Origin: an uncultured Alphaproteobacteria bacterium
Lineage (GTDB): Bacteria; Pseudomonadota; Alphaproteobacteria; Methylaequorales; Methylaequoraceae
Length of the DNA stretch: 64,000 bases
Reading direction: 5' to 3'
Assembly (NCBI GenBank): GCA_902526865.1
Contig: CABZMK010000001.1
Location: forward strand, 45,768-109,767
This document shows positions 13,273-47,683 of this stretch, in pieces. The first letter of the stretch is position 1; every line of letters starts with the position of its first letter. The notes beneath the pieces are model-generated. The model was not told the origin of the DNA. It did no database searches and saw only the letters and a list, made by a program, of their open reading frames with translations. Made by a program: the position numbers and the translations under genes.

Positions 13273-14178
13273 AAAAAAAAATTTATAGTATCCAGCTTTT
13301 ATAAATTTGTCTATCTAAGAAATCCTGCTGTAATTAAAAAAAAACTATTAATTAATTTAGAAAAATTCAAAATTAAAGGAACCTTCATCCTTGGAACAGA
13401 AGGTATCAATGCTTCTTTTTCTGTGTCAACAGAACAATTTGATAAAGTTAAAGATTCAATACGAAATTTAATTTCAACTGAAATTAAATTTAAAAATCAA
13501 TTTAATAATAATCATTCTTTTTTAAGACTGAAAATCAAAGAAAAACAAGAAATTATATCTCTAGGACAAAAAAATGTTTCTCCAGAAGAAACAACTGGTT
13601 TTTTTGTTGCCCCTGATTCGTGGGACAAGTTTATTTGTGATCCAGATTCTATAATTATTGATACAAGAAATGAATATGAATCTGATATAGGTTCTTTTAA
13701 AAAGTCTGTAAAAACTAAAACTAATAATTTTAGAGAATTTCCAATTTGGTTTGAAAAACATAAGAAAAAACTTTTTGAAAAAAAAATCGGAATGTTTTGT
13801 ACTGGCGGGATCAGATGTGAAAAAGCAAGTAATTTTTTAATCAATAAGGGATATAAAAACATCTTTCAACTTGATGGTGGAATTATTGAATATTTAAATA
13901 AAACTAAAAATAAGAGTAAGATGTGGAAAGGTGAATGTTTCGTTTTTGATGAAAGAGTTTCATTAAATGATAAACTTGAAAAAGGATTGTATTCACAATG
14001 TTTTGCTTGTAGAGCTGCTTTAACTTACGTTGACACTAAATCAAGGTATTTTAAATTAGGAGTATCGTGCCCAAAATGTTTTAAAGAAAAATCGAAAAAG
14101 CAAAAAGCTAGGTATAAGGAACGACGAAGACAAATGCAAATTGCAAAAAAAAAAGGAATGAAACATATAGGTAGTTAG
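13267..14178 (+). CDS. trhO: Rhodanese-domain protein TrhO/YceA family (tRNA U34 hydroxylase-like)
   Basis: 303 aa; UPF0176 N-domain, rhodanese domain with active-site Cys ([12 protein letters not shown]), C-terminal Cys pairs and Lys-rich tail. Confidence 0.7.
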
Positions 14179-15239
14179 TCATTTCCGAGTTTTGGAATTG
14201 AGTATTTTTTCATTTTTTCAATTAAAGTTGTTCTATTTATTTTCAAGCATTTTGAGGCCTCAGTTACAGATCCGTTGCTTTTTTTTAGTGCTCCTTCTAT
14301 TAAATTAAATTCAACATCGCTTAAGTGTCTTCTAAGATCTATTTTATCTAAAAAGTCGAACCATTTTTTATAATGATTTGGGTGTGGCATTGAATCAGAA
14401 TGAGAACTTGCTTCAATTTGAATTGGAGAAAGGTCGGAGGTCATTGTCCATAACTCCTCTTTCTCCTGTGAGATGTCAGGTAGATTAATTTTTAAAAGAT
14501 TTTCTTTAATATTTTTGCCATTGATTTTTTTATCTGGAAAAATTATTACTGCTCTCTCAATAACATTTTTTAACTCTCTTACATTACCTGGCCATACATA
14601 TTCCTGAAGTGCTTTTATGCCTGTATTATCAATTTGAGGAATAATAGATCCATTGTATTTTAAATCGTCTAAAATATGATTTACAAGAATTGGGATATCA
14701 TCCTTTCTCTCTGCAAGCGAAGGAATTTCAATTGGAAAAACGTTTATCCTAAAAAATAAATCTGCCCTAAAATGACCCTCATCAATTTTTTTTTCAATGT
14801 CTTGGTGTGTAGCACAAATCAGTCTTAAATTAAGATCAATTTCTTTTCTGCCTCCAACACGTTGAATTTTTCTAGTTTCAATTGCCCTTAGTAATTTAGC
14901 CTGAAGTGCCATAGGCATGTCACCTATTTCATCCAAAAATAAGGTGCCATTGTTAGAGGCCTCAAATCTTCCTTCTCTTTTTGAGTCTGCACCAGTAAAT
15001 GCACCTTTTTCATGACCAAATAGCTCAGATTCTAAAAGCTCGGACGGGATTGCTGCACAATTAACGTTTATTAATTCACCATTTCTTTTTGATGATTCAT
15101 GAATAGCCCTAGCAACTACATCTTTACCACACCCTGTCTCACCTCTGAGTAAAACTGTTGAGTTTGATTTTGCAACCATCTCTACAAGTTTTTTTAATTG
15201 TAAAGTTACCTCACATTTTCCTTTGATGATTTCTGACAT
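14175..15239 (-). CDS. Sigma54-dependent transcriptional activator (AAA+ domain plus Fis-type HTH, no receiver domain); FleQ-like flagellar master regulator candidate
   Basis: 354 aa; Walker [15 protein letters not shown] motif ([10 protein letters not shown]), C-terminal HTH ([16 protein letters not shown]); divergent from the fleT-fliE operon. Confidence 0.8.
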
Positions 15240-15381: not shown

Positions 15382-15397
15382 TGGCAATATTTTTGCT
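15382..15397 (+). promoter_or_regulatory. Sigma54 (-24/-12) promoter TGGCAA-N5-TTGCT
   Basis: GG-N10-GC spacing with TGGCA and TTGC flanks, immediately upstream of the second activator gene. Confidence 0.6.
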
Positions 15398-15430
15398 TTT
15401 AGATTGAAAACGAAAATAAAGGATTTAAAT

Positions 15431-16588
15431 ATGAAGGAAATATTTATTATTAAAGATTGTTTTGAAGTACACAATGATATACGCGATTTTTTTAGTAAAA
15501 AAGGAAAGGAAATAAAATTAATTGATTCTGATGAAATCAGCGAAATTAAAAGCTCTCAATCCATACTGATTATTGATAAAAAATTCGAAAACAAACAAGG
15601 TGGTAAATCAAATATTCTTAAAGTTGCTAGAAATATAGGTTCTACAAAGTTAATAGTTTTGGATTCAGGAAATGATTGTAGTTATGATTTAAAAAAAGAA
15701 ATGGGCGGAGCTTACATTCAAATTTCTTTCAAAATTATTGATGAGGTTATAAAAGAAATTATTTTTCAAATTATATCTAAGGAAAAGTACAGTTTCTCTG
15801 ATAAGAAAACACTTTCTTTAATAAACATGGTTGAAAAAGTTTCGAAAACTGATGTTACAGTATTCATTCATGGGCCAACCGGAACTGGAAAAGAAGTTAT
15901 TTCAAATCTTATTCATAAAAAGTCGGATAGACATGAAAAGCCTTTTATTGCGATTAATTGTGCTGCAATTCCAGAAAATATGCTTGAAGCAATGTTATTT
16001 GGACATGAAAAAGGCGCTTTTACAGGAGCTTCTTCTGCCAATAAAGGAATTTTTCGAGCTGCGGATAATGGCACACTACTTCTTGATGAAGTATCTGAAA
16101 TGCCGCTGTCCCTCCAAGCAAAACTTCTCAGGGTTCTCCAAGAAAAAAAAGTTACTCCCATTGGCGGACAAAGAGATATTGATGTAAATGTAAGAGTAAT
16201 TGCAACAACGAATAGAGATATGTTAGACGAAGTAAGAGAAAAAAAATTTAGAGAGGATTTATATTATAGACTTAATGTATTCCCAATAGAAACACATAAT
16301 TTATCTGAAAGACCTGATGATATTTTACCAATAAGTATTGCTCTGTTGAATAGACACACAGAAAACAGCCCCTTACCTTACATCAATAAAGATGCTCAAA
16401 AATTATTAAGAGAGTATAGTTGGCCTGGAAATGTTAGAGAGTTAGAAAATGTTCTACAAAGAGCCATAGTTCTTTGTGAAAAAAATATTATTGAGGGTAA
16501 AGACATAATGATAGATGTGTCAAAACAAAGTAATTTTTATAATAACATTCAAGAAAATTTATCAGAAAAAAAATTGATGCAAGCTTAA
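15431..16588 (+). CDS. Sigma54-dependent activator lacking an obvious C-terminal DNA-binding domain, with REC-like N-domain (FleT-like)
   Basis: AAA+ sigma54-interaction domain ([18 protein letters not shown]); no HTH after the AAA+ domain. ATG at 15431 has SD AAGGA; the ORF-track TTG at 15404 would precede the predicted transcription start. Confidence 0.75.
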   Translation: MKEIFIIKDCFEVHNDIRDFFSKKGKEIKLIDSDEISEIKSSQSILIIDKKFENKQGGKSNILKVARNIGSTKLIVLDSGNDCSYDLKKEMGGAYIQISFKIIDEVIKEIIFQIISKEKYSFSDKKTLSLINMVEKVSKTDVTVFIHGPTGTGKEVISNLIHKKSDRHEKPFIAINCAAIPENMLEAMLFGHEKGAFTGASSANKGIFRAADNGTLLLDEVSEMPLSLQAKLLRVLQEKKVTPIGGQRDIDVNVRVIATTNRDMLDEVREKKFREDLYYRLNVFPIETHNLSERPDDILPISIALLNRHTENSPLPYINKDAQKLLREYSWPGNVRELENVLQRAIVLCEKNIIEGKDIMIDVSKQSNFYNNIQENLSEKKLMQA

Positions 16589-25880: not shown

Positions 25881-25896
25881 CGGCAAGGTTTTTGCA
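25881..25896 (+). promoter_or_regulatory. Sigma54 promoter CGGCAA-N5-TTGCA upstream of fliO
   Basis: GG-N10-GC spacing; lies in the fliN-fliO gap. Confidence 0.55.
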
Positions 25897-30384: not shown

Positions 30385-30391
30385 TAATATT

Positions 30392-32726: not shown

Positions 32727-33911
32727 TTAATAATTTATCTCAATTTCAATTCTTCTATTTTTTGCTCTTCCCTGAGAAGTGTCATTTGACTCTACTGGTC
32801 TTGTCTCTCCGTAACTGATCGCCTTCATTCTTTTTGGATCAAGAGTAGCGTTTCTTGATAGTTGTTGAACCACTGAGGCAGATCTTGCTGCTGCGAGATC
32901 CCAATTGTCTCTATAATTTGACCCAAATGTAAGTGGCACGTTGTCCGTATGACCCATAACCAATATCTCGCTTCTACCTTTTTTATTTTGTTCTGCTATT
33001 TTAGACATTATATCTCTTGCCTTGTTGGTAAGTTCAGCAGATCCTGACTTGAACGCACCAGCAGACCCAACAGTTATTATCACTTTATCGTCCTCTCTAT
33101 CAACATTAACAAGACCTTCCCCAATTTCTTGTTTCAGTGCAATTTTTAATTTGTCCTCAGCCAACTCTGCTTTTTTAGCCTCTTCTTTTGCTGATTGGCT
33201 TTGTTCAGATTGACCTACACTTTCCCCATCTTCCCCTTCAGCCTCATTTTTACCTTTTTGAGAAGACGCAGTTGCAAGATCAGCAAGCTGTTTTTCTAAG
33301 CCACCAATTAAAATTTCAGATTCTGATTTTCCTGATGCAGCCTTAACAGATTCCACAGCATTTAAAGTCTCTTGAAGAAGTTGAGGTAGTTCTTTCTCGT
33401 CTGCCTCTGTTGGTGTAAAGTTAACAACAACTTTACTCCCCAGAGCTTCGACAGTTATATCACCTCTTGCAATAGCTTCTTGAATATTTTTGGCAAGTTC
33501 TTTTGCATCCTCAGTTTCACCGTCATCCTTTGTGTTATCTTCTTGCTTGGTTTGAAGTTCTACTTTAGGTTGATCAGTCTCTGTCGTTTGTTGTTTTAAA
33601 TTATCTTGAACTGCTGGAGTGGGGTTTGGACTAAAATTAAGAGATAGTATTGTCGTTCCTTTTGGTGGTTCGACAACAGGTATAACTCTTTGTATTCCAA
33701 AAGCATTCTTCATACTACCACTTATTTGTTTAAATTTTGGTACATTAAATTCTGCAAAAGAGAGGATTAAAACAAAAAAAGCCATTAATAGTGTTGCCAT
33801 ATCGGCAAAGGTTGCCATCCAGGCTGGCGCCCCCTTCGGAGGACATTCTGGGCATTCATGTTCCTCTTCCTCGTTAGAGGTCTCTTGATTTTCGGTTTTT
33901 TCCTCAGCCAT
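32727..33911 (-). CDS. motB: Flagellar motor stator protein MotB (OmpA-like peptidoglycan-binding C-terminus)
   Basis: 394 aa; single TM after acidic N-terminus; OmpA/MotB domain (ILVMGHTDNVPL...NWDLAAARSASV...GRAKNRRIEI). Confidence 0.85.
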   Translation of the reverse strand: MAEEKTENQETSNEEEEHECPECPPKGAPAWMATFADMATLLMAFFVLILSFAEFNVPKFKQISGSMKNAFGIQRVIPVVEPPKGTTILSLNFSPNPTPAVQDNLKQQTTETDQPKVELQTKQEDNTKDDGETEDAKELAKNIQEAIARGDITVEALGSKVVVNFTPTEADEKELPQLLQETLNAVESVKAASGKSESEILIGGLEKQLADLATASSQKGKNEAEGEDGESVGQSEQSQSAKEEAKKAELAEDKLKIALKQEIGEGLVNVDREDDKVIITVGSAGAFKSGSAELTNKARDIMSKIAEQNKKGRSEILVMGHTDNVPLTFGSNYRDNWDLAAARSASVVQQLSRNATLDPKRMKAISYGETRPVESNDTSQGRAKNRRIEIEINY

Positions 33912-33921
33912 GATTTAAACT

Positions 33922-34695
33922 TTAGCCTCCAGCTGCAGCTTCCAAGAGTTTTTGTTTTTCTTTTGGAGGCAGATTTGCAACAAGTTGGTCTTGGATATTT
34001 CTAGGGCTTTCACCTCTTGAAATGAATTGTAAACCTGTAATAATCATCTCCCTGTAGGTAGTTTCGTAAGCTGAATAGCCTTTTAACTTTATCACAATCG
34101 GCATGAAAATCGTATTTGCGATCATAGCCCCATAAAGCGTGGTTAAAAGAGCAACAGCCATTGCAGGACCTATTGCTTTTGGATCAGCCATATTTCCTAA
34201 CATCGCAACTAATCCTACTAAAGTTCCAATCATTCCCATAGCGGGTGCTATGTCTACCCAAGATTGAGCACAACCAATGTTTTTCTCATGACGAACTTGC
34301 ATAGCCTTAAGTTCTTTTTTTAATTGAACAGTTAGTTTTGATTCGTCTGCTCCGTCAACAAGCATTTGTAAACCATTATCAAAAAACGGATCAGGCGTCT
34401 CTTGACCTTCAAGTGCCATCATTCCGTCTTTTCTTGCAATACCTGCTAACTCGACTATCCTTTCAATAAGTTCATCCATTTTTTTCACTGGCGGTTTAAA
34501 AGCCTTACCAAAGGCTCCGAAAGAACCGAGGTAAACGGGTAAAGGAGCTGTATACATCACAGCGAAAAAAGAACCACCAAAAACAATTAAAATTGAGGGA
34601 ACGTCAATGTAAGATCCCAAACCTCCGGCCGAAATCATCGCACCTGCAATCATACCTATTGTGCCAAGAAATCCTATTATTGTAGCTAAATCCAT
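33922..34695 (-). CDS. motA: Flagellar motor stator protein MotA
   Basis: 257 aa; MotA/TolQ/ExbB proton-channel family TM pattern. Confidence 0.85.
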   Translation of the reverse strand: MDLATIIGFLGTIGMIAGAMISAGGLGSYIDVPSILIVFGGSFFAVMYTAPLPVYLGSFGAFGKAFKPPVKKMDELIERIVELAGIARKDGMMALEGQETPDPFFDNGLQMLVDGADESKLTVQLKKELKAMQVRHEKNIGCAQSWVDIAPAMGMIGTLVGLVAMLGNMADPKAIGPAMAVALLTTLYGAMIANTIFMPIVIKLKGYSAYETTYREMIITGLQFISRGESPRNIQDQLVANLPPKEKQKLLEAAAGG

Positions 34696-34733: not shown

Positions 34734-34749
34734 TGGTATAGATTCTGCA
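34734..34749 (+). promoter_or_regulatory. Sigma54 promoter-like element (plus strand: TGGTAT-N5-CTGCA) sharing its -12 TGCA with the motA promoter
   Basis: GG-N10-GC on the plus strand; about 60 bp upstream of the DUF1566 gene. Confidence 0.4.
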
Positions 34750-34762
34750 ACTTTAATACCAA
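34746..34762 (-). promoter_or_regulatory. Sigma54 promoter (minus strand: TGGTAT-N5-TTGCA) upstream of motA
   Basis: GG-N10-GC on the minus strand; about 50 bp upstream of the motA ATG. Confidence 0.5.
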
Positions 34763-34810: not shown

Positions 34811-35284
34811 ATGATTAAAAAGCAACTCATAATATGTTTTTCACTGTTATTTTTTAAAAGTGTCTTCGCTTCTAATTTCATAGACAAAGGATATTATGTC
34901 ATAGATTTAAAAAATAAGATCGAATGGCTAAAATGTACTACTGGTCAACAGTGGAGTGACGAAAAACAAGCATGTCTGGGAACTGCTGTAAAATTGGACT
35001 TGAAATCTGTTGAAGAGGCAAATAATCTTCTCAATGAGCAAATTGAGGGTGAGTGGAGATTGCCATCACGAAAAGAGCTTGAAAGCTTAATTTGTAAAAG
35101 TTGTGAGGGAGCAAAAATTGATAAAACTTTTTTTCCTAACACACCAGCGGAACCTTTTTGGACTTCGCAAAGAAATTGGTGGTCGCCCAAGTTTTTTTGG
35201 TCGGTAAATTTCTTTACGGGACATTCTTACGGAAGATTTGTCCCCGAAAAAGAACTCTTTATAAGATTCGTGAAGGATCGTTAA
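34811..35284 (+). CDS. Secreted DUF1566 (Lcl C-terminal domain-like) protein
   Basis: 157 aa; signal peptide; GEWRLPSRKELESL motif typical of DUF1566. Confidence 0.55.
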   Translation: MIKKQLIICFSLLFFKSVFASNFIDKGYYVIDLKNKIEWLKCTTGQQWSDEKQACLGTAVKLDLKSVEEANNLLNEQIEGEWRLPSRKELESLICKSCEGAKIDKTFFPNTPAEPFWTSQRNWWSPKFFWSVNFFTGHSYGRFVPEKELFIRFVKDR

Positions 35285-36247: not shown

Positions 36248-37708
36248 ATGCAAATTTCTCAGAATCTCAAATTAAAACAGAGTCAATCTTTAGTTATGAC
36301 TCCTCAGTTACAGCAAGCAATAAAATTACTCCAGTTGAATAATTTAGAATTAACAAATCTAGTTAATAAAGAGCTTGAAGAAAATCCTTTTTTAGAGAAT
36401 GAAAACGATGAATTGGATAATCAAAACGATCAAGACACAGAAAAAACGAATGAGTTAGATGAATCTTTTGAAAATGGCGAATCAATTTCAGATGAACCTT
36501 GTAATGATGATTTTGAAAATAGATGGGATAATGATGCGACTTTTGAATTTAATAGTAAACATTCATCCACTGACAGTGTTGATGTTGGAAGCGTAATAGA
36601 GCAGACACTTAGCAATAAAGTTTCTTTAAAATCTATATTAAGTAATCAAGCAGATTTAGAATTCAATGACGATGATGATAAGAAAATTGCAGAAATATTA
36701 ATTGACTACGTTGACGAAAATGGTTGGATCACTGAAAGTTTAGAAGACATTGAGGAATTTAGTGGATTTAACTTTAAACAAATTGAAAAAGTTTTAGAAA
36801 GAATGCAATGTTTTGAGCCAAATGGGGTATTTGCTAGAAATCTGAAAGAATGTCTCAAAATTCAACTTATTAATGAAAACAACTTGGATTCAAAGAAAGA
36901 AATTATTATCGAAAATATTGATTTACTTGGAAGTGGAAATATTAAAGGACTTCAAAAACTAACAGGACTAAAAGAAGAAAAGCTAAAAGACGAAATAAGG
37001 CTTATTAGAGCTCTAAACCCAAAACCAGGAAGCAAGTATTCAACAGATAATGACAATATCTTCCATCCAGATGTAATTGTAACAAAAAATAATTCTGATT
37101 GGGCAGTGGAATTAAATCATGGCACACTTCCGAAAATTAATATTAATAATGACTATGTCAAAGAAATAGAAAGACTTCAATGTGGAGAATCGGATAAAAA
37201 ATTTATAAATGAATCTTTAAATTCTGCAAGATGGTTGCTTAAAGCAATCCAACAACGAAACGTTACAACACTAAAAATTAGTTCCGAAATTGTTAATCAA
37301 CAAAAGGAATTTTTCGAAAAGGGAAAAAAATATCTAAAACCAATGGTTCTTAAAGATGTTGCAAAAAAAATTAATATGCATGAGAGCACAGTTAGTAGAG
37401 TCACATCAGACAAATTAATGCTAACACCAAGAGGTGTTTTAGAAATGAAACTATTTTTTAGTGCTTCGATAAGTAGTACCAAGAAAGGTGAGACTCATTC
37501 AGCAGAGTCAGTAAGAGAATCACTTAAAAAATTAATTAGCAGTGAACCCTTAAACAACCCATTGAGTGATGAAATGTTGGTAGAAAAACTTCAAGATGAA
37601 GGTATTGATTTAGCTAGAAGAACAGTTGCAAAATATAGGGAGTTGCTTAATATACCAGCCTCTTCGGTTAGAAGAAAAATTATGAAAATTCAAAATATGA
37701 ATATTTAG
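36248..37708 (+). CDS. rpoN: RNA polymerase sigma-54 factor RpoN
   Basis: 486 aa; N-terminal region I (LKQSQSLVMTPQLQQAIKLLQLNNLEL), acidic region II, C-terminal RpoN box (ARRTVAKYRE). Confidence 0.92.
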   Translation: MQISQNLKLKQSQSLVMTPQLQQAIKLLQLNNLELTNLVNKELEENPFLENENDELDNQNDQDTEKTNELDESFENGESISDEPCNDDFENRWDNDATFEFNSKHSSTDSVDVGSVIEQTLSNKVSLKSILSNQADLEFNDDDDKKIAEILIDYVDENGWITESLEDIEEFSGFNFKQIEKVLERMQCFEPNGVFARNLKECLKIQLINENNLDSKKEIIIENIDLLGSGNIKGLQKLTGLKEEKLKDEIRLIRALNPKPGSKYSTDNDNIFHPDVIVTKNNSDWAVELNHGTLPKININNDYVKEIERLQCGESDKKFINESLNSARWLLKAIQQRNVTTLKISSEIVNQQKEFFEKGKKYLKPMVLKDVAKKINMHESTVSRVTSDKLMLTPRGVLEMKLFFSASISSTKKGETHSAESVRESLKKLISSEPLNNPLSDEMLVEKLQDEGIDLARRTVAKYRELLNIPASSVRRKIMKIQNMNI

Positions 37709-37813: not shown

Positions 37814-37984
37814 TCAGGAATATACAATACTTTTAATTTCTCTAGAAGATCTATCCAAGAAATGCGAAACTGGATAAACATCAGTTTTAACACATTTGTC
37901 ATTGTCAAAATGAGTAATTTTTATAACTGGATAAGAATTAGGGATGTTACCATTAATTTCGTCTGATCTAATATATTTGTTCAT
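37814..37984 (-). CDS. Unannotated small ORF (56 aa) with strong Shine-Dalgarno
   Basis: ATG preceded by AAGGAGAAAAAA on the minus strand; below the 60-aa ORF-track cutoff; sequence MNKYIRSDEINGNIPNSYPVIKITHFDNDKCVKTDVYPVSHFLDRSSREIKSIVYS. Confidence 0.35.
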   Translation of the reverse strand: MNKYIRSDEINGNIPNSYPVIKITHFDNDKCVKTDVYPVSHFLDRSSREIKSIVYS

Positions 37985-38035
37985 TTTTTTCTCCTTGTTG
38001 AATTAAATGTGCAAATACTTTGCCAAAGTCATAAG

Positions 38036-38641
38036 TTAAATATTTTCTTTTTTTAAAATTTCTCTAAAAAATTTTATTTTGGCTTTTTCATCTCGTTTGT
38101 TGTAGCTATTTTTAATAACTATTTTTCGTTGTCTTAAATCATTCCAATAAGTATAGACTTTTTTAAGATAGTTCTTCTTTCTTTTTGGAATTGATGAATG
38201 ATATCTTGAAACTGCTTCGTTCCATGATTTATATTTTTTATAAAGTTTAAGCAGATAAATTGCCGCATATTTAACGTTTTCTTCAGGCTCGACTAAATGA
38301 GACAAATCTTTAAAATTTTTTAAATGATATTTTGTGTTAATTTGCATGCAACCCACATCGATACTTTTTTTTAAATCTATATTACTTTTTAAATATTCTA
38401 TCGTTTCCGACTTATTATCAAAGTACATTGATTTGCCTGAAACATTGAGTGTCCATGGCCATGACTTAAATTCACTTTTTTTGATGCCTGACTCTACAAG
38501 TGCAATAGAAGTTAACAATTTATTAGGAAGATTATAAATTTTTCCATACTTTTCAGTTAAGTAATTACAATTATCTAATTCTTTTGATTCAAGAAATGTA
38601 AATGTTAAGAAGCATAATAAAACAGCTAAAAATAATTTCAT
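38036..38641 (-). CDS. Lytic transglycosylase (SLT-domain, secreted)
   Basis: 201 aa; signal peptide; SLT catalytic region (ALVESGIKK...WPWTLNVSG...GCMQIN). Confidence 0.7.
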   Translation of the reverse strand: MKLFLAVLLCFLTFTFLESKELDNCNYLTEKYGKIYNLPNKLLTSIALVESGIKKSEFKSWPWTLNVSGKSMYFDNKSETIEYLKSNIDLKKSIDVGCMQINTKYHLKNFKDLSHLVEPEENVKYAAIYLLKLYKKYKSWNEAVSRYHSSIPKRKKNYLKKVYTYWNDLRQRKIVIKNSYNKRDEKAKIKFFREILKKENI

Positions 38642-38677
38642 AACTGTTATTCAGCAATTTGAGTGCCAAACTTTAGT

Positions 38678-40057
38678 TTATTTTTTAATTATTGAGCTAC
38701 TCAGTAGATCGCGTCCTACTGAAATAAAATCGTACGGGTTTACCGATTTACCATTCACTTTTATTTCATAATGAAGATGTGCGCCTACAGCTCTTCCTGT
38801 TGATCCCATTTTTCCAATTACTTCTCCCTCTGTGACACTCATTCCTTTTTTTACGTTCAATCTATGAAGATGTCCATACAATGTAGACACACCATGTTTA
38901 TGGACTATTTTAATTGTTTTACCAAAAGACCCATTTCTTCCTGAAAAAGAAACATATCCGTCAGCTGGTGCCCTGACCTCTTCTTGCCAAGTGCCAGCCA
39001 TATCAATTCCATGATGCATTTGCTTTCTTTTGCTTTTAGGATGAATTCTAAAGCCATAAGGACTAGACACATAGTAATATTGCATAGGTGGTTTTAAAGG
39101 TACGTAAATAATTGCATCTTTAAGATCTTGCAAAATTTGAAACCTGAGTGAAGTATGGTCCAACAAATCCTCGTTATCCTCGCTTACATTTATATTTTCA
39201 GCAAGCAAATTGTTTATCCTATGAATATCAAGTTTATCTGGATGAAGTTTCAATTGTTCAAAAACACTTAAAAGTTGGAAAATTTCAGTATCAATTTTCT
39301 TAGTAAAATTAATTATTTTCAGTTTTTTTGTTCTTGGAGCAACAAACGGTATCACAGGTAGCTTCCTATATGCAAATGATTCTATTTTGTCTTTGGAGGG
39401 TTTTGTTAAATCAGTCTTGTTCTTAAAGGCATGTTCAATTGCAACCATTTCCGGACTAGCAAGTTTGGAAAATTGTTCAAATTTGATTTCATCTGAATAA
39501 TTCACGTCATTAGGGAAACTAAGCTTTATGTTTCGCATCATACTTTTTAAATTTAATAATTTGTCCCTTAATTGATTTTGTAATTCATTTTGAATATTAT
39601 TGGTGTCAGTAAATTCGTCTTGTTGTTTTATTACTATTTCTGCTTTTTCAGAGTTAATTTCATGCTCGGATATATTTTTACCTTTTGCAATACTTTTTAA
39701 TGCTCTAATTTCCGATTCTGTAAAACTTTGTTCATTAATAATTGTATTTTTGTAGACCATGTAAGAAAAAAAAGACGAAACACCAACAAATAAAAGTTGA
39801 AGTATCTTGAAGATTAAAACAAGAAAAATGGCAACAGCTGACAGATAGTGTTTGATATTAAATACAACTTCTATAGGGCCTTTTTTCGTAAAATAAAGAA
39901 ATCTTCTTTCTTTGAGAATAAGTCTAAGGTTTTTTGAAAAAACACTTAAGTTTTTCGAAAAAATACTTGTTTCTCCAAACCTAGTACTTGATTTTAGATT
40001 TTTTAAAATGTCAGATTTGAACACACTTATGGAATTTTTTTTTGATAAATTTTCCAT
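38678..40057 (-). CDS. M23-family metallopeptidase (LytM-like) with N-terminal TM and long coiled/linker region
   Basis: 459 aa; C-terminal M23 motifs (HHGIDMAG, HLHYEI). Confidence 0.75.
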   Translation of the reverse strand: MENLSKKNSISVFKSDILKNLKSSTRFGETSIFSKNLSVFSKNLRLILKERRFLYFTKKGPIEVVFNIKHYLSAVAIFLVLIFKILQLLFVGVSSFFSYMVYKNTIINEQSFTESEIRALKSIAKGKNISEHEINSEKAEIVIKQQDEFTDTNNIQNELQNQLRDKLLNLKSMMRNIKLSFPNDVNYSDEIKFEQFSKLASPEMVAIEHAFKNKTDLTKPSKDKIESFAYRKLPVIPFVAPRTKKLKIINFTKKIDTEIFQLLSVFEQLKLHPDKLDIHRINNLLAENINVSEDNEDLLDHTSLRFQILQDLKDAIIYVPLKPPMQYYYVSSPYGFRIHPKSKRKQMHHGIDMAGTWQEEVRAPADGYVSFSGRNGSFGKTIKIVHKHGVSTLYGHLHRLNVKKGMSVTEGEVIGKMGSTGRAVGAHLHYEIKVNGKSVNPYDFISVGRDLLSSSIIKK

Positions 40058-40061
40058 TAAA

Positions 40062-40604
40062 TTATTTTAGGTATAGAACAACTACCAACATCATGTTGGT
40101 TAATAGTTGCATTAACATAATTAGCAACATAAGTTTCCATGAAATTGGATTACTAACATTTAAGCTAAACTGAGGGAATGGTTGTTTTTCGTCAAACTTT
40201 ACCGATTGTTTTTTTTCATCAACAACTCTATCATTTTGGTAACTATCATAGGTTTTATAATTTTGCTTTGCTTCAAAGTTCCTTCGTTTTTCAAATTCTA
40301 TTTTTTCAGTAATATCCGGTTCTTCAACTTCTTTTCGTTTAAGGTTTTGTACTTCAGAATCTACTGCTAATTTTTCTTTACTATCAAATCTAATATTTTC
40401 TTTATTGGTTGCTTCAGGTTTGTTTTTATCTATTTTTTTTTCTAAATTTTCTACATTAATGTTCGCAGCCTTATCGCTTGATACAGATTCAACGCTTTTT
40501 TTTTCAACTTTTATCTCTGTAGAAGAAACTTTAGAAGCCGGAACAGTCATCTGATTTCTCATTTTTTCTATTCTATCTCTTATATCAATTACTGGTTCGG
40601 TCAT
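40062..40604 (-). CDS. Hypothetical tail-anchored charged protein (180 aa), first gene of the sigma54-driven PG-hydrolase operon
   Basis: K/E-rich, C-terminal TM (LMLLIMLMQLLTNMMLVVVLYL). Confidence 0.4.
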   Translation of the reverse strand: MTEPVIDIRDRIEKMRNQMTVPASKVSSTEIKVEKKSVESVSSDKAANINVENLEKKIDKNKPEATNKENIRFDSKEKLAVDSEVQNLKRKEVEEPDITEKIEFEKRRNFEAKQNYKTYDSYQNDRVVDEKKQSVKFDEKQPFPQFSLNVSNPISWKLMLLIMLMQLLTNMMLVVVLYLK

Positions 40605-40645
40605 ATAGAGTTAACTTACAATAAAATTTGTTAAAAGTAAATTTA

Positions 40646-40661
40646 TGCATTTAGTAAGCCA
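40646..40661 (-). promoter_or_regulatory. Sigma54 promoter (minus strand TGGCTT-N5-ATGCA) for the orf180-M23-SLT operon
   Basis: GG-N10-GC on the minus strand, about 40 bp upstream of the orf180 start. Confidence 0.5.
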
Positions 40662-40724
40662 AAATATAAATAATAAAACTTTTTTTTTAATTTTTTTTAT
40701 GATAAGCATAAAATTAATACAAAT

Positions 40725-40740
40725 TGGCAAAATTATTGCA
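40725..40740 (+). promoter_or_regulatory. Sigma54 promoter TGGCAA-N5-TTGCA for the bactofilin operon
   Basis: GG-N10-GC, near-consensus; 12 bp upstream of the first bactofilin ATG. Confidence 0.55.
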
Positions 40741-40751
40741 AAAATAGAAAT

Positions 40752-41174
40752 ATGTTTTCTAGAAATCCAGATAAAACTGTAAAAAAAACCTCAACTTCTT
40801 CTAGTGTAATTGGTACCGAAATGCAAATTAATGGTAATATAAAGTGTAGTGGAAAATTAGTGCTTAAAGGAATTGTTAAAGGTAATATTGAATGTGAACA
40901 TGTTCATATTTCTGCTGAAGGAAATCAAAAAGGTAATATAAAAGCTTTCGAATGTATAATTGGAGGTAACTTTGAAGGAGATGTTACTGCTGAATCACTC
41001 TCAATCGAATCTGCAGCCAACATAAAAGGAAATATGTATTACAATAGTTTAAGTGCAAGACCTGGGGCTAATTTAGAGATTCAGCTTTTCCGTGGATTAG
41101 ATAAAAGAATTGAAGATAAAAGTTCAGAAAAAGAAAAAAAAAAGAAACAAACAAAAAAATCTAAGGGTATCTAA
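40752..41174 (+). CDS. Bactofilin (DUF583/CcmA) paralog 1 with Lys-rich C-terminal tail
   Basis: 140 aa; repeated beta-helical G-x-V/I-x-G pattern (GKLVLKGIVKGNIECEHVHISAEGNQKGNIKA...). Confidence 0.75.
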   Translation: MFSRNPDKTVKKTSTSSSVIGTEMQINGNIKCSGKLVLKGIVKGNIECEHVHISAEGNQKGNIKAFECIIGGNFEGDVTAESLSIESAANIKGNMYYNSLSARPGANLEIQLFRGLDKRIEDKSSEKEKKKKQTKKSKGI

Positions 41175-41176
41175 TA

Positions 41177-41530
41177 ATGGCAGATAATCAATCAATTATA
41201 GGAAGAGGAGCAATATTTAAGGGTAAAATTTCTAATGCATCAACTATAGAAATTAATGGAAGAGTCGAAGCAGATATTAAATCTGACAAGGTAACACTTG
41301 GAAAACATGCTTCACTTGAAGGTTCAATAATCTCTGAGTTAGTTGTAATCTCTGGAAATTATCAAGGTAAAATTAAAGCTGATTCTGTTTGGCTCACAGA
41401 TTCTTCTGTTATTACTGGAGAAATTAATTACAAATCACTTCAGATGGACAGAGGAGCGGCGCTTAACTGTAAGATCATCCACAATTGGGATGAAAATAAG
41501 TTAAAAAATAATAAACAGATCGAGGATTAA
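41177..41530 (+). CDS. Bactofilin paralog 2
   Basis: 117 aa; bactofilin beta-helix repeats (IGRGAIFKGKISNASTIEINGRVEADIKSDKVTLGKHASLEGSI). Confidence 0.8.
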   Translation: MADNQSIIGRGAIFKGKISNASTIEINGRVEADIKSDKVTLGKHASLEGSIISELVVISGNYQGKIKADSVWLTDSSVITGEINYKSLQMDRGAALNCKIIHNWDENKLKNNKQIED

Positions 41531-41532
41531 AC

Positions 41533-41850
41533 ATGAGTGATATCACTTACATTAACAAAAATCTTCTAATGGAAGGGCAATTAGAATCGAAAGATGGTCA
41601 AGTTGTTATAGCGGGAAATTTTAAAGGTAATATCGTTGCTAAATTCGTAATTATTGAACCTACTGCGTTATTTAATGGAAACATAAATGCGGAACACCTA
41701 AAAGTAGAGGGTAAAGTTGACGGAGATATTACAGCTGACCTTTTGGAAGTAGGTAACAGTGGGGTAATTGACGGTAAATTAAAAACAAATTCACTTTCGG
41801 TCGATACTGGAGCTCAAATTTCAGGTAATGTTGGTAGAATTTCTAGTTAG
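41533..41850 (+). CDS. Bactofilin paralog 3
   Basis: 105 aa; bactofilin repeats (VVIAGNFKGNIVAKFVIIEPTALFNGNINAEHLKVEGKVDGDITAD). Confidence 0.8.
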   Translation: MSDITYINKNLLMEGQLESKDGQVVIAGNFKGNIVAKFVIIEPTALFNGNINAEHLKVEGKVDGDITADLLEVGNSGVIDGKLKTNSLSVDTGAQISGNVGRISS

Positions 41851-42093
41851 TTCAAACTTTTTTTGAGTATCGATACAATTTTTAAAAAAATTAAGCGTCT
41901 CTTTTTCACCATCTAGCTTTTCAAGGTTAATTGAAGCAAATCTACCAGCAGCAAGTGAAACAGCCCATAAATCATGCTCATTGATTGCATAGTTAGTCAA
42001 AATTCTTTCAATTTCGTCTCTAATTTCAACCATTTTTTTTTTCTTTTTATTTAATAAATTTGGAAATTTAATTATGTTTTTCGTATCGTGCAT
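41821..42093 (-). CDS. Hypothetical 90-aa protein, uncertain
   Basis: ORF only; overlaps the bactofilin-3 3' end by 30 nt. Confidence 0.25.
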   Translation of the reverse strand: MHDTKNIIKFPNLLNKKKKKMVEIRDEIERILTNYAINEHDLWAVSLAAGRFASINLEKLDGEKETLNFFKNCIDTQKKFELTRNSTNIT

Positions 42094-43837: not shown

Positions 43838-44650
43838 TTGATAACATTAAATGTTTTTTCAGTAATTTTAGAAACTGTTGATTCAGTTTATGAAAGATTT
43901 GAACTTTATTTCAACTATTTCGAATATTTTTCTGTATTAATTTTTACTGTAGAATATCTACTTAGGCTGTGGTCTTGTGTTTCTAAAAAAAATGAGGAAG
44001 GAAGTGATTATAAAAAAAGAGTCAGATATATTTTTAGCTTTGGAGCTTTAATTGATGCTGTTGCGATACTTCCAAGTCTCATCGCATTGTTTTACCCATC
44101 TATTGATCTAAGATTTGTGAGAGCATTGAGGATAGTAAGGTTGTTAAAATTTTCAAGATATTCAGGTTCAATTAATAGTTTGATTTCAGTATTATGGGAT
44201 CAAAGAAGGTCCTTTGGGGCAGCATTTTTTTTATTGTTTATAGCTTTAATAATTGTATCAAGTGGAATGTACTTGGTTGAAAAGGACGTTCAACCAGAAA
44301 AATTTGGGAGCATACCACAATCCATGTGGTGGGCATTAGTTACTCTTACAACAGTTGGGTACGGAGATGTTTATCCAATTACTAATTTAGGAAAATTTTT
44401 TGGATCTATAAGTATTATTTTGGGAATCGGAACGGTTGCATTGCCGGCTGGAATCATGGCATCGGCTTTTACAGAATTCACAAGGAGGAATCAAAAAAAA
44501 TATGAAGACAAATTAAAGTTCATGCTAAAAGACGACGTTATTGATAAAGAGGAAAGAGAGGAACTTAGGTTATTATCGGAAAAACTCAATTTATCGGATA
44601 AAGACATAGGTGCAATTGAGGATGACTATAAAGCTGAAAAAAAGAAATAA
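43838..44650 (+). CDS. Potassium channel (voltage-gated-like, TVGYGD selectivity filter)
   Basis: 270 aa; charged S4-like helix RFVRALRIVRLLKFSRY; pore TTVGYGD; TTG start, and the frame stays open about 39 codons upstream without a start codon. Confidence 0.75.
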   Translation: MITLNVFSVILETVDSVYERFELYFNYFEYFSVLIFTVEYLLRLWSCVSKKNEEGSDYKKRVRYIFSFGALIDAVAILPSLIALFYPSIDLRFVRALRIVRLLKFSRYSGSINSLISVLWDQRRSFGAAFFLLFIALIIVSSGMYLVEKDVQPEKFGSIPQSMWWALVTLTTVGYGDVYPITNLGKFFGSISIILGIGTVALPAGIMASAFTEFTRRNQKKYEDKLKFMLKDDVIDKEEREELRLLSEKLNLSDKDIGAIEDDYKAEKKK

Positions 44651-47600: not shown

Positions 47601-47683
47601 CAACTCCATTTTTCTGGTAATAGAGGTTTCCTATATAAATCCATCTCAGAGTGAGATAATTTTCTTATATTAATACTTGTCAT
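44657..47683 (-). CDS. ppc: Phosphoenolpyruvate carboxylase, highly divergent
   Basis: 1008 aa; VLTAHPTF (PEPC VLTAHPTE motif), FNTHGESIGRGGHP (FHGRGGxxGRGGxP motif), VQTGFSDAGRYLG (GYSDSxKDxG motif). Confidence 0.6.
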   Translation of the reverse strand: MTSINIRKLSHSEMDLYRKPLLPEKWSCFPVDRDIDTQQLRKILQKDLDKIRSGAEKDPFSNSITMLALDISRRLEKNKLNYSALEALIQRLAVGSFGLRADRLKSYIGKIDKKQNIEIIKRIIKDLAFEEKKKITFQEFNRKISKEIFGIVLTAHPTFGMTYNMMLELAKLATSKNNNKNLTDKELKGIVKEVFKTEQRPEKKITLDFEHGLSMSALKFLQASLRTFYEVIIDASKKLFPSDYHRITPQIFRLHTWVGYDVDGRGDIFWNDSFSKRLQVKVEQLDIYQQKVNKIIKLNKDKGCEIELSQIKNIITDAIKINTEALTKFSEKDFVTDLNSIKQVSNFLHKNKDKLLTNSLLILKKITSVLNTLVEKDSSKNKNTINEILIFKIELSNFGLGLGRTQLRLNANQLNNAISKEIDLMGDPNDPSNKLTYLNIISKMIDNVKPVKINFGSIYEENMNARRYFMLTKQILKYIDENQSIRFLIAECDYPLTVMTALYFSKLFGVESKIDISPLFETEKGLEIGDDVIRTLLRNSNFKKYILARKKLTVQTGFSDAGRYLGQSAAVLSIENLQRKIAKAMHDLNITNVKLLIFNTHGESIGRGGHPVSLIDRLKYVNCHYTRKKLMDWKIDLIQEMSFQGGDGYQYFMNHDLAFAAVSRITEFCYNDSSVKSDALYDSVDFGIEFVNTIKNFNTEIMDDPNYAALLNVFGSNLTHSTGSRSVKRHIDSSIKTLVYHPSQTRAIPQNSILQQLGMLANSLGGVGKFIGKDQKKFVKVYNNSDRFKRIMDIVQHAFAFSDIEVLKAYIDCFDPGMWLSWSTRTADSERSKNMKEVANLLEKFDVHWRLNKVYRGLHQEYMEIRNWILGRKLRGRIAVGRGRVIEKEIRDELLLMHGIRVAIFHEIFLLSVRIPKFSDQAGTSRDEVIAKLIRFDVFNAVEILRKIFPVGQVKTSNIGFSDKSNYLSEGNINYTKEEKSIFQKLEALYECARRVSNGINHFIGSVG

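What the first reader, a model, noticed from the sequence alone, without database searches (positions are those of the whole stretch)
40605..41850. Triplet of tandem bactofilin genes under a sigma54 promoter, divergent from a sigma54-driven PG-hydrolase operon
Three consecutive DUF583 bactofilin paralogs (140, 117 and 105 aa) are separated by 2-3 bp. They are preceded by a near-consensus TGGCAA-N5-TTGCA promoter 12 bp before the first ATG. The first paralog ends in a poly-Lys tail (EKEKKKKQTKKSKGI). In the same 147-bp intergenic region, a minus-strand TGGCTT-N5-ATGCA promoter points at orf180-M23 peptidase-SLT transglycosylase. Bactofilins are known cytoskeletal scaffolds: cell shape in Helicobacter, stalk enzymes in Caulobacter, and a reported requirement for flagellar assembly in Bacillus subtilis. 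A sigma54/flagellar-regulon-controlled bactofilin trio next to motAB and rpoN suggests a scaffold for positioning the flagellum or the peptidoglycan remodelling machinery.
Basis: partly seen in the sequence, partly recalled or inferred. Interest (0 to 1): 0.65.

Follow-up and report, generated by a model that had tools for sequence, protein, structure and literature searches.

The report
Sigma-54-wired three-bactofilin and LmdC-like peptidase module
Three ancient bactofilin cytoskeleton genes lie back-to-back with a cell-wall peptidase of the kind known to dock on bactofilin filaments, and in this uncultured marine bacterium and its distant relatives the set always lies beside the flagellar motor genes and carries flagellar-type promoter motifs, which suggests (untested) that local cell-wall remodelling is switched on together with the flagellum.

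Summary
Three Pfam bactofilin genes lie 2 nt apart. A near-consensus sigma-54 motif ends 11 nt before the first ATG, and a second motif on the other strand faces orf180-M23. The strict motif occurs 5 times against 0.63 expected, always in front of genes in the flagellar part of the window.

It has a conserved cytoplasmic beta-hairpin, one TM helix and an intact M23 domain. Its distant DUF5930 relatives sit in canonical lmdC-bacA pairs.

The variant here is new in three ways. It has three position-orthologous paralogues, of which only Bac1 has a membrane-targeting N-terminus. It includes a new tail-anchored protein (orf180). And it is fixed next to rpoN-Lcl_C-motAB in TMED127 and in 7 outgroup loci (RpoN 38-45% identical, GC 29-54%).

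Sigma-54 motifs precede motA, SLT and orf180-M23 in every TMED127 locus, but precede bac1 in only 14 of 30 (4 of 6 outgroups).

Verdict: a new variant of the bactofilin-M23 morphogenetic module, wired to a Fla1-like flagellar regulon. A flagellum-positioning role is possible but untested.

The parts
40725..40740 (+). sigma-54-type promoter motif TGGCAAAATTATTGCA, ending 11 nt before the bac1 ATG with no Shine-Dalgarno sequence (predicted leaderless mRNA)
   Evidence: at the same distance in 11 TMED127 sequences, at 25-35 nt in 3, absent in 16
40752..41174 (+). bac1: bactofilin with an MFSR membrane-targeting N-terminus and a Lys-rich C-tail
41177..41530 (+). bac2: bactofilin without a membrane-targeting sequence; the most conserved of the three (73-100% in the clade, 48-61% to outgroups)
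41533..41850 (+). bac3: bactofilin without a membrane-targeting sequence
40680..40709 (.). conserved T-tracts plus palindrome ATGATAAGCAT between the two divergent promoters; function unknown
40646..40661 (-). sigma-54-type promoter motif TGGCTTACTAAATGCA for orf180-M23
   Evidence: 30/30 TMED127 loci
40062..40604 (-). orf180: tail-anchored protein with a conserved N-terminal peptide (V/I)IDIR(D/E)RIEK, a variable low-complexity linker and a near-invariant C-terminal TM anchor; orthologue (orfX) in all outgroup blocks for which DNA was available
38678..40057 (-). LmdC-family M23 endopeptidase: cytoplasmic beta-hairpin 51-66, TM about 70-99, helical periplasmic region, M23 domain 346-441 with HxxxD and HxH intact
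38653..38668 (-). sigma-54-type promoter motif TGGCACTCAAATTGCT, ending 11 nt before the SLT ATG
   Evidence: 29/29
38036..38641 (-). SLT-domain lytic transglycosylase with an N-terminal signal-like segment (SltF-like by architecture)
38010..38025 (-). sigma-54-type promoter motif for orf56
   Evidence: 25/27
37814..37984 (-). orf56: conserved small protein of unknown function
36248..37708 (+). rpoN (sigma-54)
34811..35284 (+). Lcl_C/DUF1566-domain protein, always between rpoN and motA
34746..34761 (-). sigma-54-type motif TGGTATTAAAGTTGCA about 50 nt before motA
   Evidence: 25/25; also in outgroups
32727..34695 (-). motA-motB stator genes
14175..15239 (-). FleQ-like sigma-54 activator (AAA+ plus HTH_8, no receiver domain)
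15382..16588 (+). sigma-54 motif (15382-15397) plus FleT-like activator (ATG 15431; no HTH detected), heading the fliEFGHI... operon

Best explanation
This is a three-subunit version of the conserved bactofilin-M23 (BacA-LmdC) morphogenetic module, and its transcription is tied to a Fla1-like sigma-54 flagellar hierarchy.

Inferred mechanism:
1. Bac1, Bac2 and Bac3 co-assemble into a filament or sheet under the inner membrane.
2. Only Bac1 carries the N-terminal membrane-targeting peptide (MFSR..K), so it anchors the polymer.
3. The bitopic M23 endopeptidase docks on the polymer through its cytoplasmic beta-hairpin (E50-RRFLYFTKKGPIEVVF) and cuts peptidoglycan cross-links in the periplasm at that site.
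4. orf180 is an extra adaptor. It has a cytoplasmic N-terminal peptide, a long flexible linker and a C-terminal membrane anchor, and it is co-transcribed with the peptidase.
5. Sigma-54 holoenzyme, activated by the FleQ/FleT-like activators, fires the promoters of orf180-M23, SLT, orf56 and motAB. In this genome it also fires the bactofilin operon, as a leaderless mRNA.

The outcome would be local wall remodelling (of the pole or of cell curvature) at the same time as the basal body and stators are made.

Shown here: gene content, family membership, motif enrichment and conservation, synteny.
Inferred: co-polymerisation, docking, enzyme activity, sigma-54 dependence, and what the remodelling is for.
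For: Bactofilins:
- Three PF04519 hits.
- Paralogues share only 27-36% identity with each other, yet each is orthologous position by position to the outgroup triplets.
- Bac1 matches the published membrane-targeting consensus MFSKKKK/MFSRKTE, in which F2 and K4/K7 are critical (PMC12448750). Bac2 and Bac3 lack it.

M23 protein as an LmdC relative:
- M23 domain E 1.5e-30; H348/D352 and H427/H429 invariant in 55 sequences.
- One hydrophobic span at about 70-99 with a net-positive N-terminus.
- AF2 with 55 sequences gives a hairpin at E51-57/E60-66 with pLDDT about 80 and a TM helix at about 92.
- E50 and R52 are at least 90% conserved across the family, including DUF5930 proteins.
- Three DUF5930+M23 relatives are each followed by a single bactofilin, as in R. 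rubrum and H. neptunium (PMC10945521).

Regulation:
- Motif enrichment.
- Motif present before motA 25/25, SLT 29/29, orf180 30/30, orf56 25/27 and bac1 14/30 TMED127 loci.
- Motif present before bac1 in outgroups L034, L035, L036 and L042.
- GG and GC are invariant in an intergenic region that otherwise averages 49% column identity.
- FleQ/FleT-like gene layout, with rpoN in the locus.

Linkage:
- The block bac3-bac2-bac1 <> orfX-M23-x-rpoN-x-Lcl_C-motA-motB is kept in 7 outgroup loci with RpoN only 38-45% identical, GC 29-54% and different flanking genes.
Against: - There are no expression or interaction data of any kind.
- The bac1 motif is missing in about half of TMED127 and in outgroups L037 and L041. 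No sigma-54 motif was found before orfX in L034-L037 or L041, so which side is sigma-54-controlled differs between lineages.
- The M23 protein does not reach Pfam DUF5930 at E<=0.01. Its best NCBIfam hits (Pgp6, Pgp3) are far below cutoff.
- Synteny could be inherited rather than selected. A K+ channel gene also stays in the neighbourhood in L036 and L037.
- The genome-wide set of sigma-54 activators is unknown, so the activator could be non-flagellar.
- The organism is uncultured, and its cell shape and flagellation are unknown.
Confidence: 0.55

Rival explanations
1. Dedicated flagellar accessory. The bactofilin polymer marks the future flagellar site. With orf180 it concentrates the M23 endopeptidase, and indirectly the SltF-like transglycosylase, to open or reshape peptidoglycan for rod passage or stator (MotB) anchoring. 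The module would then be a structural or assembly part of the flagellum rather than a shape determinant.
For: - The block is invariably next to rpoN-Lcl_C-motAB across deep divergence.
- Sigma-54 motifs are shared with motA and SLT.
- The SLT gene stays inside the block even when it changes position.
- There is precedent in B. subtilis, where BacE/BacF are required for hook and filament assembly (PMC4627819).
Against: - Characterised LmdC-BacA modules act on cell shape, not on flagella.
- In outgroups the main fli/flh cluster is not adjacent.
- The bac1 sigma-54 motif is dispensable in half of TMED127.
- No flagellar protein is known to bind bactofilin in Gram-negative bacteria.
Confidence: 0.25
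2. Ordinary housekeeping shape module with incidental linkage. The triplet-LmdC module controls curvature or cell diameter constitutively. Its position beside rpoN and motAB is inherited synteny in streamlined genomes, and the bac1 sigma-54 motif is weak, redundant or non-functional.
For: - 16 of 30 TMED127 loci lack the bac1 motif and keep only the T-tract/TGATAAKCAT backbone; some of them have a Shine-Dalgarno sequence.
- Unrelated genes (K+ channel, Lcl_C) also remain nearby.
- Canonical lmdC-bacA loci have no flagellar context.
Against: - The orf180-M23 motif is found in 30/30 loci with invariant GG and GC.
- The bac-side motif recurs in four deeply divergent outgroups at a different distance, indicating turnover under selection.
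- Flanking genes are reshuffled while the block stays intact.
Confidence: 0.15
3. BacNOP-like positioning scaffold for something other than the cell wall, such as the chromosome or ParABS, or another polar machine. The M23 link would be secondary.
For: Three tandem paralogues resemble M. xanthus bacN-O-P (from my own knowledge). Bac1 has a basic C-tail.
Against: No padC, parA or parB-like genes are in the block. The M23 hairpin motif and orfX are the conserved partners. The basic tail is not conserved in outgroups.
Confidence: 0.05

Closest known systems
BacA-LmdC bactofilin/M23 endopeptidase module (Hyphomonas neptunium, Rhodospirillum rubrum; Pohl et al. 2024, PMC10945521)
   Same: - A bactofilin gene clustered with a bitopic M23 peptidase.
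- A short cytoplasmic tail with a conserved beta-hairpin just before the TM helix, a helical periplasmic region and a catalytically intact M23 domain.
- Sequence continuity from the window protein to DUF5930-M23 proteins that sit in lmdC-bacA pairs.
   Different: - Three fixed paralogues instead of one adjacent bacA.
- Divergent rather than co-directional arrangement.
- An extra conserved tail-anchored gene (orf180/orfX) in front of the peptidase.
- No DUF5930 Pfam hit.
- Sigma-54 motifs, and constant linkage to rpoN-Lcl_C-motAB.
Helicobacter pylori / Campylobacter helical-shape complex (CcmA bactofilin with Csd1/Csd2/Csd3, Csd5, Csd7; Pgp3/Pgp6)
   Same: - A bactofilin working with M23 peptidases and small non-enzymatic membrane proteins.
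- Csd1-Csd2 and Csd3 are among the best solved structural matches to the M23 domain.
- Pgp6 and Pgp3 are the top NCBIfam hits.
   Different: The similarities are limited to the generic M23 domain and fall below family cutoffs. orf180 shows no detectable homology to any family, Csd5 and Csd7 included. The regulation and gene order are different.
Rhodobacter (Cereibacter) sphaeroides Fla1 sigma-54 hierarchy (FleQ, FleT, RpoN2, SltF; PMC7277832)
   Same: - Two activators, one of them heading a fliEFGHI(J) operon.
- rpoN inside the motility region.
- motAB predicted to be sigma-54 dependent.
- A signal-peptide SLT enzyme in the regulon.
   Different: No bactofilin or M23 genes are reported in Fla1. 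Orthology of SLT to SltF was not tested. In R. sphaeroides motAB lie outside the cluster.
Bacillus subtilis BacE/BacF (PMC4627819)
   Same: Tandem bactofilin paralogues linked to flagellar biogenesis.
   Different: A Gram-positive organism with no sigma-54 control, no M23 partner reported and no evidence of orthology. The link there is experimental; here it is only genomic.
Myxococcus xanthus BacN-BacO-BacP
   Same: Three tandem bactofilin paralogues that probably co-polymerise (from my own knowledge).
   Different: That system works with PadC/ParABS and SofG. No such partners are present here, and it has no M23 or sigma-54 link.

Membership tests
Bactofilin (PF04519) | Bactofilin beta-helical core domain | tested here: met
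   All three ORFs score 75.6-78.9 bits against a cutoff of 27.9 and cover 94-97 of 98 model positions. Bac2 matches Caulobacter BacA 2N3D at E 9e-9.
Bactofilin (PF04519) | N-terminal membrane-targeting sequence (consensus MFSKKKK; F2 and K4/K7 critical) | tested here: met
   Met for Bac1 only. MFSRNPDK, with M1-F2-S3 invariant in 19 orthologues. Bac2 (MADNQS) and Bac3 (MSDITY) lack it. Outgroup Bac1 N-termini vary: MFERDRK, MFKAQK, MMYKKQ, MAKLDK.
Bactofilin (PF04519) | Nucleotide-independent polymerisation | not testable with these tools
   Requires purified protein or imaging.
LmdC-type M23 endopeptidase (bactofilin client) | C-terminal M23 domain with intact Zn/catalytic motifs | tested here: met
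   PF01551 E 1.5e-30 over residues 346-441. H348, D352, H427 and H429 are invariant in 55 sequences. The domain is modelled at pLDDT above 90 and matches M23 structures.
LmdC-type M23 endopeptidase (bactofilin client) | Bitopic topology: short cytoplasmic N-terminus, then a single TM helix | tested here: met
   A single hydrophobic span at about 70-99. Residues 1-71 hold 15 K/R against 5 D/E. Helix 68-109 has pLDDT about 92.
LmdC-type M23 endopeptidase (bactofilin client) | Conserved cytoplasmic beta-hairpin that binds BacA | tested here: met
   Strands 51-57 and 60-66 at pLDDT about 80. The motif ERRFLYFTKKGPIEVVF aligns with ERRLFLKSDTDTRFIRL of DUF5930 proteins from lmdC-bacA loci, and E50 and R52 are at least 90% conserved. 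The spacing fits R. rubrum R25-H26-L27/R30-S31. Binding itself was not tested.
LmdC-type M23 endopeptidase (bactofilin client) | Periplasmic coiled-coil region | tested here: inconclusive
   Helices are predicted at 114-126, 152-179 and 244-316, but residues 127-240 have pLDDT below 50. No coiled-coil predictor was run.
LmdC-type M23 endopeptidase (bactofilin client) | Pfam DUF5930 N-terminal region | tested here: not met
   No DUF5930 hit at E<=0.01 for the window protein or for the nearer outgroups. It is present in the more distant relatives P0317, P0479, P0482 and P0485. The window protein is therefore a divergent subfamily.
LmdC-type M23 endopeptidase (bactofilin client) | Gene adjacent to a bactofilin gene | tested here: met
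   Divergent from the bac operon and separated from it only by orf180 and the 147-bp intergenic region. The same holds in all 32 clade loci and 7 outgroup loci.
Sigma-54-dependent promoter | GG at -24 and GC at -12 with fixed spacing (TGGCAC-N5-TTGCW) | tested here: met
   bac1 TGGCAAAATTATTGCA; SLT TGGCACTCAAATTGCT; orf56 TGGCAAAGTATTTGCA; orf180 TGGCTTACTAAATGCA; motA TGGTATTAAAGTTGCA. Enrichment is 5 against 0.63 and 14 against 2.18.
Sigma-54-dependent promoter | Conservation of the motif in orthologous positions | tested here: inconclusive
   For bac1: 14/30 TMED127 loci and 4/6 outgroups, at different distances. For motA, SLT and orf180: 25/25, 29/29 and 30/30.
Sigma-54-dependent promoter | rpoN and a cognate activator present; transcription depends on them | not testable with these tools
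   rpoN and two activators are present. Dependence needs experiments.
Fla1-like sigma-54 flagellar regulon (R. sphaeroides type) | FleQ plus an HTH-less FleT heading fliEFGHIJ | tested here: met
   The activator at 14175-15239 has HTH_8. The activator at 15431-16588 has no HTH hit, follows a sigma-54 motif and precedes fliE-F-G-H-I. The precedent is described in PMC7277832. Orthology to FleQ/FleT was not tested.
Fla1-like sigma-54 flagellar regulon (R. sphaeroides type) | Dedicated Sec-exported lytic transglycosylase (SltF) | tested here: inconclusive
   SLT domain plus an N-terminal hydrophobic segment and its own sigma-54 motif. The nearest named families are IagB and VirB1, both below cutoff. 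No SltF sequence was available for comparison.
M. xanthus BacNOP-PadC-ParAB system | Linked padC/parAB partners | tested here: not met
   No ParA, ParB or PadC-like domains in the block, in the window or in the outgroups.

The most novel reading that the evidence does not exclude
The three-bactofilin/orf180/LmdC-like set is an integral, sigma-54-timed part of flagellar biogenesis in a large group of marine Alphaproteobacteria. In this reading a cytoplasmic cytoskeletal patch marks the flagellar site and directs a periplasmic endopeptidase, together with the SltF-like transglycosylase, to tailor peptidoglycan around the basal body and stators. That would be the first cytoskeleton-guided wall-remodelling device belonging to a Gram-negative flagellar regulon.
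Probability: 0.25. Interest if true: 0.75.

Novelty: new variant of a known kind. Interest (0 to 1): 0.5.

Why it matters
Bactofilin-M23 modules were only recently recognised as general shape-building devices. How they are timed, and what else they serve, is still open.

This study finds a deeply conserved variant with three features:
- a fixed three-paralogue scaffold;
- a previously undescribed tail-anchored partner;
- promoter motifs and gene linkage that tie it to the sigma-54 flagellar hierarchy and the stator genes.

The variant occurs in TMED127/Methylaequorales, an abundant uncultured ocean methylotroph order (up to about 4% of marine metagenomes per genus, PMC12542740), and in related lineages.

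If the link is functional, it connects wall remodelling or cell shape to motility at the level of one regulon. It also gives bactofilin researchers a defined heteromeric system and a new candidate adaptor. Separately, it shows that TMED127 carries flagellar genes, a trait that the paper describing the order does not discuss.

Tried and rejected
- **Rfam:** a scan of the whole window at gathering thresholds gave no hits, so there is no known RNA element in the intergenic regions.
- **Sigma-70 and terminator scan:** uninformative at 29% GC, with 22 promoter-like sites against 25 expected.
- **Palindrome as a recurring activator site:** ATGATAAKCAT gives 7 matches against 7.1 expected in the window. 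It is specific to this intergenic region and remains unexplained.
- **First AF2 model of M23:** 21 close orthologues gave pLDDT 51, too poor to use. It was replaced by a 55-sequence model with pLDDT 71.
- **Fold search:** afdb50 was unavailable. The PDB search returned only generic M23 domains.
- **First M23 homology search:** it returned only the window's own clade. The outgroups were reached through the exhaustive profile search and a second alignment.
- **NCBIfam naming of M23 and SLT:** all hits were far below cutoff.
- **orf180 and orf56:** no family in Pfam or NCBIfam.
- **HIMB59/AEGEAN-169 as the source:** considered and dropped. The MAG names place the clade in TMED127.
- **Literature:** no paper in the library links bactofilins to sigma-54, FlbD or TacA control.
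- **orfX promoter in outgroups:** no sigma-54 motif was found before orfX in L034-L037 or L041.
Full report
**1. Observation.**

The window is 29.4% GC. It encodes three consecutive + strand ORFs at 40752-41174, 41177-41530 and 41533-41850, each separated by 2 nt. Each is a full-length Pfam bactofilin, with E-values of 3.8e-21, 2.6e-21 and 3.5e-22. Bac2 also matches the solved Caulobacter BacA structure 2N3D.

The 147-bp region upstream contains TGGCAAAATTATTGCA at 40725-40740, ending 11 nt before the ATG. On the other strand it contains TGGCTTACTAAATGCA at 40661-40646, 41 nt before orf180.

The strict pattern TGGC-N7-TTGCW occurs 5 times against 0.63 expected, and none of 100 shuffles reaches 5. 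A relaxed pattern occurs 14 times against 2.18. All seven intergenic matches lie upstream of, and on the same strand as, fleT, fliK, motA, orf56, SLT, orf180 and bac1.

Two corrections apply. SLT has its own motif ending 11 nt before its ATG, so it is a separate unit. A conserved 56-aa gene (37984-37814) with a Shine-Dalgarno sequence and a further strict motif follows it.

**2. Surroundings.**

The window carries a large motility region:
- an activator with an HTH domain (14175-15239, minus strand);
- divergent from it, an HTH-less activator that follows a sigma-54 motif and heads fliE-F-G-H-I-(J);
- then fliK-L-M-N-(O)-P...R-flhB;
- then motB-motA, an Lcl_C protein and rpoN;
- then the block studied here.

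This is the layout described for R. sphaeroides Fla1. There, FleQ with sigma-54 activates fleT-fliEFGHIJ. FleQ/FleT then activate class III genes, which include motAB. rpoN2 lies in the flagellar locus. A signal-peptide lytic transglycosylase, SltF, opens the wall for the rod (PMC7277832).

**3. Source and relatives.**

Bac1 homologues come from marine metagenomes and single-cell genomes. A genome scan returned 32 syntenic loci. Their MAG names (MED652, MED657, MED715, TMED13) place the clade in the uncultured order TMED127/Methylaequorales. These are marine methylotrophs with genomes of about 1.5 Mb, and the paper describing them does not mention flagella.

All 32 loci keep the same gene order from motAB to the bactofilins and beyond. 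Bac2 is the best conserved at 73-100% identity, Bac3 is 65-98% and Bac1 is 49-99%.

**4. The bactofilins.**

The paralogues share only 27-36% identity with one another. They are nevertheless orthologous position by position to triplets in distant outgroups, so the three-subunit set and its gene order are ancient.

Bac1 begins MFSRNPDK, and M1-F2-S3 is invariant. This matches the experimentally defined membrane-targeting sequence, whose consensus is MFSKKKK (MFSRKTE in Pseudomonadota) and in which F2 and K4/K7 are critical. Bac2 and Bac3 lack it. None of the three has a hydrophobic segment.

I infer a heteropolymer anchored through Bac1.

**5. The M23 protein belongs to the LmdC family.**

Pohl et al. 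(PMC10945521) showed three things. Bactofilin genes lie next to M23 peptidase genes in 226 species. LmdC is bitopic, with a short cytoplasmic tail, a TM helix, a periplasmic coiled coil and a C-terminal M23 domain. A conserved cytoplasmic beta-hairpin binds BacA.

The window protein has the following features:
- a net-positive N-terminus and one hydrophobic span at about 70-99;
- invariant HxxxD and HxH motifs;
- a nearly invariant segment E50-RRFLYFTKKGPIEVVFNIKHY just before the TM helix.

A 55-sequence AlphaFold model (mean pLDDT 71) places strands at 51-57 and 60-66 with pLDDT about 80. It gives the TM helix about 92 and the M23 domain above 90. Residues 127-240 remain unresolved.

An exhaustive profile search found full-length relatives with the same element, for example ERRFLLMTRRGPVELVF and ERRYLIITRHGPMELVL. 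In the family alignment the element lines up with ERRLFLKSDTDTRFIRL of DUF5930-M23 proteins, and E50 and R52 are at least 90% conserved. Three such DUF5930 proteins are each followed by a single bactofilin gene and have no flagellar genes nearby, which is the canonical lmdC-bacA pair.

The window protein itself does not hit DUF5930, so it represents a divergent subfamily. Solved-structure and NCBIfam matches reach only the generic M23 domain (Csd1/2, Csd3, Pgp3/6, ShyA, NMB0315).

**6. orf180.**

orf180 has three parts:
- a conserved N-terminal peptide, MTE(P/Q)VIDIRDRIEKMRNQM;
- a variable low-complexity linker of about 110 aa;
- an almost invariant C-terminal membrane anchor.

The anchor is its only hydrophobic segment. 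Outgroups carry an orthologue, orfX, with (V/I)IDIR(E/K)RI at the N-terminus and ..Q(I/L)L(T/S)N.. in the anchor. It always lies directly upstream of the M23 gene. No family matches it. I read it as a tail-anchored adaptor of the module.

**7. Depth of the linkage.**

Seven outgroup loci were sampled through M23 homologues: L034, L035, L036, L037, L041, L042 and one JGI contig. All show the same block: bac3-bac2-bac1 <> orfX-M23-(small ORF)-rpoN-(small ORF)-Lcl_C-motA-motB.

These lineages have 29-54% GC. Their identity to the window is RpoN 38-45%, MotA 67-74% and Bac2 48-61%. Their flanking genes differ, and the main fli/flh cluster is usually not adjacent. The SLT gene stays in the block but moves to the far side of the bactofilin operon in L034 and L035.

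The boundary with the canonical form is sharp. Every non-DUF5930 subfamily sampled has the triplet plus rpoN-motAB. Every DUF5930 protein sampled has one bactofilin and no motility genes.

**8. Promoter conservation.**

| Motif upstream of | TMED127 loci with motif |
|---|---|
| motA | 25/25 |
| SLT | 29/29 |
| orf180 | 30/30 |
| orf56 | 25/27 |
| bac1 | 14/30 |

For bac1, 11 sequences carry the motif at 10-11 nt from the ATG and 3 carry it at 25-35 nt.

The intergenic alignment shows a conserved backbone. It consists of the orf180 motif with invariant GG and GC, T-tracts and TGATAAKCAT. The bac1 motif sits inside lineage-specific insertions.

In the outgroups a strict motif precedes the bactofilin operon in L034, L035, L036 and L042, at about 125-141 nt, but not in L037 or L041. 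TGGT(A/C)...TTGC(A/T) precedes motA in all six loci with DNA. A motif precedes SLT, or its positional equivalent, in L034-L036.

A motif before orfX was seen only in L042. At least one side of the divergent pair therefore carries a sigma-54 motif in all lineages examined except L037 and L041, but which side carries it turns over.

**9. Leaderless geometry.**

For both bac1 and SLT the motif ends 11 nt before the first possible start codon, and there is no Shine-Dalgarno sequence. With GC at -12, transcription would start within a nucleotide or two of the A of the ATG.

Some loci that lack the proximal bac1 motif do have an AAGGA Shine-Dalgarno sequence, which is consistent with this reading. 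It remains an inference.

**10. Interpretation.**

The best-supported reading (confidence 0.55) is a new variant of the bactofilin-LmdC morphogenetic module. It would consist of a Bac1-anchored Bac1/2/3 scaffold, an LmdC-like endopeptidase docked through its hairpin, and orf180 as an added adaptor. It would be transcribed under the Fla1-like sigma-54 hierarchy, so that local wall remodelling accompanies flagellar and stator synthesis.

The rivals are:
- a dedicated flagellar assembly or positioning device (0.25);
- a housekeeping shape module with merely inherited linkage (0.15);
- a BacNOP-like non-wall scaffold (0.05).

Nothing here measures expression, binding, enzyme activity, cell shape or flagellation, and the organism is uncultured.

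**11. Novelty and score.**

The bactofilin-M23 pairing is known. Four things appear new: the fixed three-paralogue form, the conserved orf180/orfX partner, the constant linkage to rpoN-Lcl_C-motAB across deep divergence, and the sigma-54 motifs. A literature search found no report of sigma-54-controlled bactofilins.

I rate it a new variant of a known kind, with interest 0.5. It yields a concrete, testable link between a cytoskeletal wall-remodelling module and the flagellar regulon in very abundant ocean bacteria. The evidence is purely genomic and the mechanism is extrapolated from relatives.

Noticed in passing
window 37814-38025 (minus strand): orf56 is a conserved 56-aa protein with a Shine-Dalgarno sequence (AAGGAG) and its own strict sigma-54 motif (38025-38010). 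The motif is present in 25/27 TMED127 loci. An analogous small ORF preceded by a sigma-54 motif follows M23 in outgroups L035, L041 and L042. It matches no known family.
   Followed up: partly
window 38653-38668 and 40725-40740: The sigma-54 motifs of SLT and bac1 both end exactly 11 nt before the first possible ATG, with no Shine-Dalgarno sequence, which predicts leaderless sigma-54 transcripts. The SLT geometry recurs in outgroups L035 (11 nt) and L036 (13 nt).
   Followed up: partly
window 40680-40709: Two T-tracts plus the palindrome ATGATAAGCAT are conserved through TMED127 and are recognisable in the 54%-GC outgroup L036 (TTTTTTCTTGATAAGCAATC). The element is not enriched elsewhere in the window. 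It could be a bend or IHF/UAS-like element for the orf180 promoter, or a sigma-70 promoter for bac. Its role is unexplained.
   Followed up: partly
window 31202-31801: A divergent ribosome-recycling-factor-like protein (PF01765 at only E 5.6e-12) sits next to motB within the motility region. It is conserved in all TMED127 loci and is also next to motB in outgroup L042.
   Followed up: no
window 34811-35284: An Lcl_C/DUF1566-domain protein lies between rpoN and motA in TMED127 and in all seven outgroup blocks. It may be an unrecognised motility-associated protein.
   Followed up: no
window 25882-25896 and 29591-29605: Further sigma-54-like motifs lie before orf108 (a possible fliO) and before two unknown genes, o241 and o266 (29659-31192), which are conserved in the TMED127 loci.
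   Followed up: no
window 41821-42093 (minus strand): A 90-aa ORF converges on bac3 and overlaps its 3' end by 30 nt. It is conserved as a protein in TMED127 (42-97% identity) but is absent from the outgroup blocks.
   Followed up: no
whole window; loci L001-L032: TMED127/Methylaequorales genomes carry a flagellar and stator gene set with a FleQ/FleT-like sigma-54 hierarchy. The paper describing the order (PMC12542740) does not mention motility.
   Followed up: partly
L042 8578-13257 compared with window 8557-31801: In the 29%-GC outgroup L042, motB is followed directly by RRF-like, EngA, BamB, TPR and DUF2794 genes. The window's 14-31 kb fleQ...flhB cluster is therefore missing from that position: it was either inserted here or moved or lost there.
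   Followed up: no
window 43838-44650; L036 5831-7554; L037 12489-14175: A voltage-gated-type K+ channel gene stays in the neighbourhood of the block in the window and in two outgroups, where it is accompanied by cNMP-binding proteins. This is a reminder that some of the synteny may simply be inherited.
   Followed up: no
window 44657-47683 (minus strand): A 1008-aa protein matches the PEP carboxylase Pfam model only weakly and partially (E 8.8e-20, residues 116-612). It is a divergent PEPC-like enzyme conserved across the clade.
   Followed up: no
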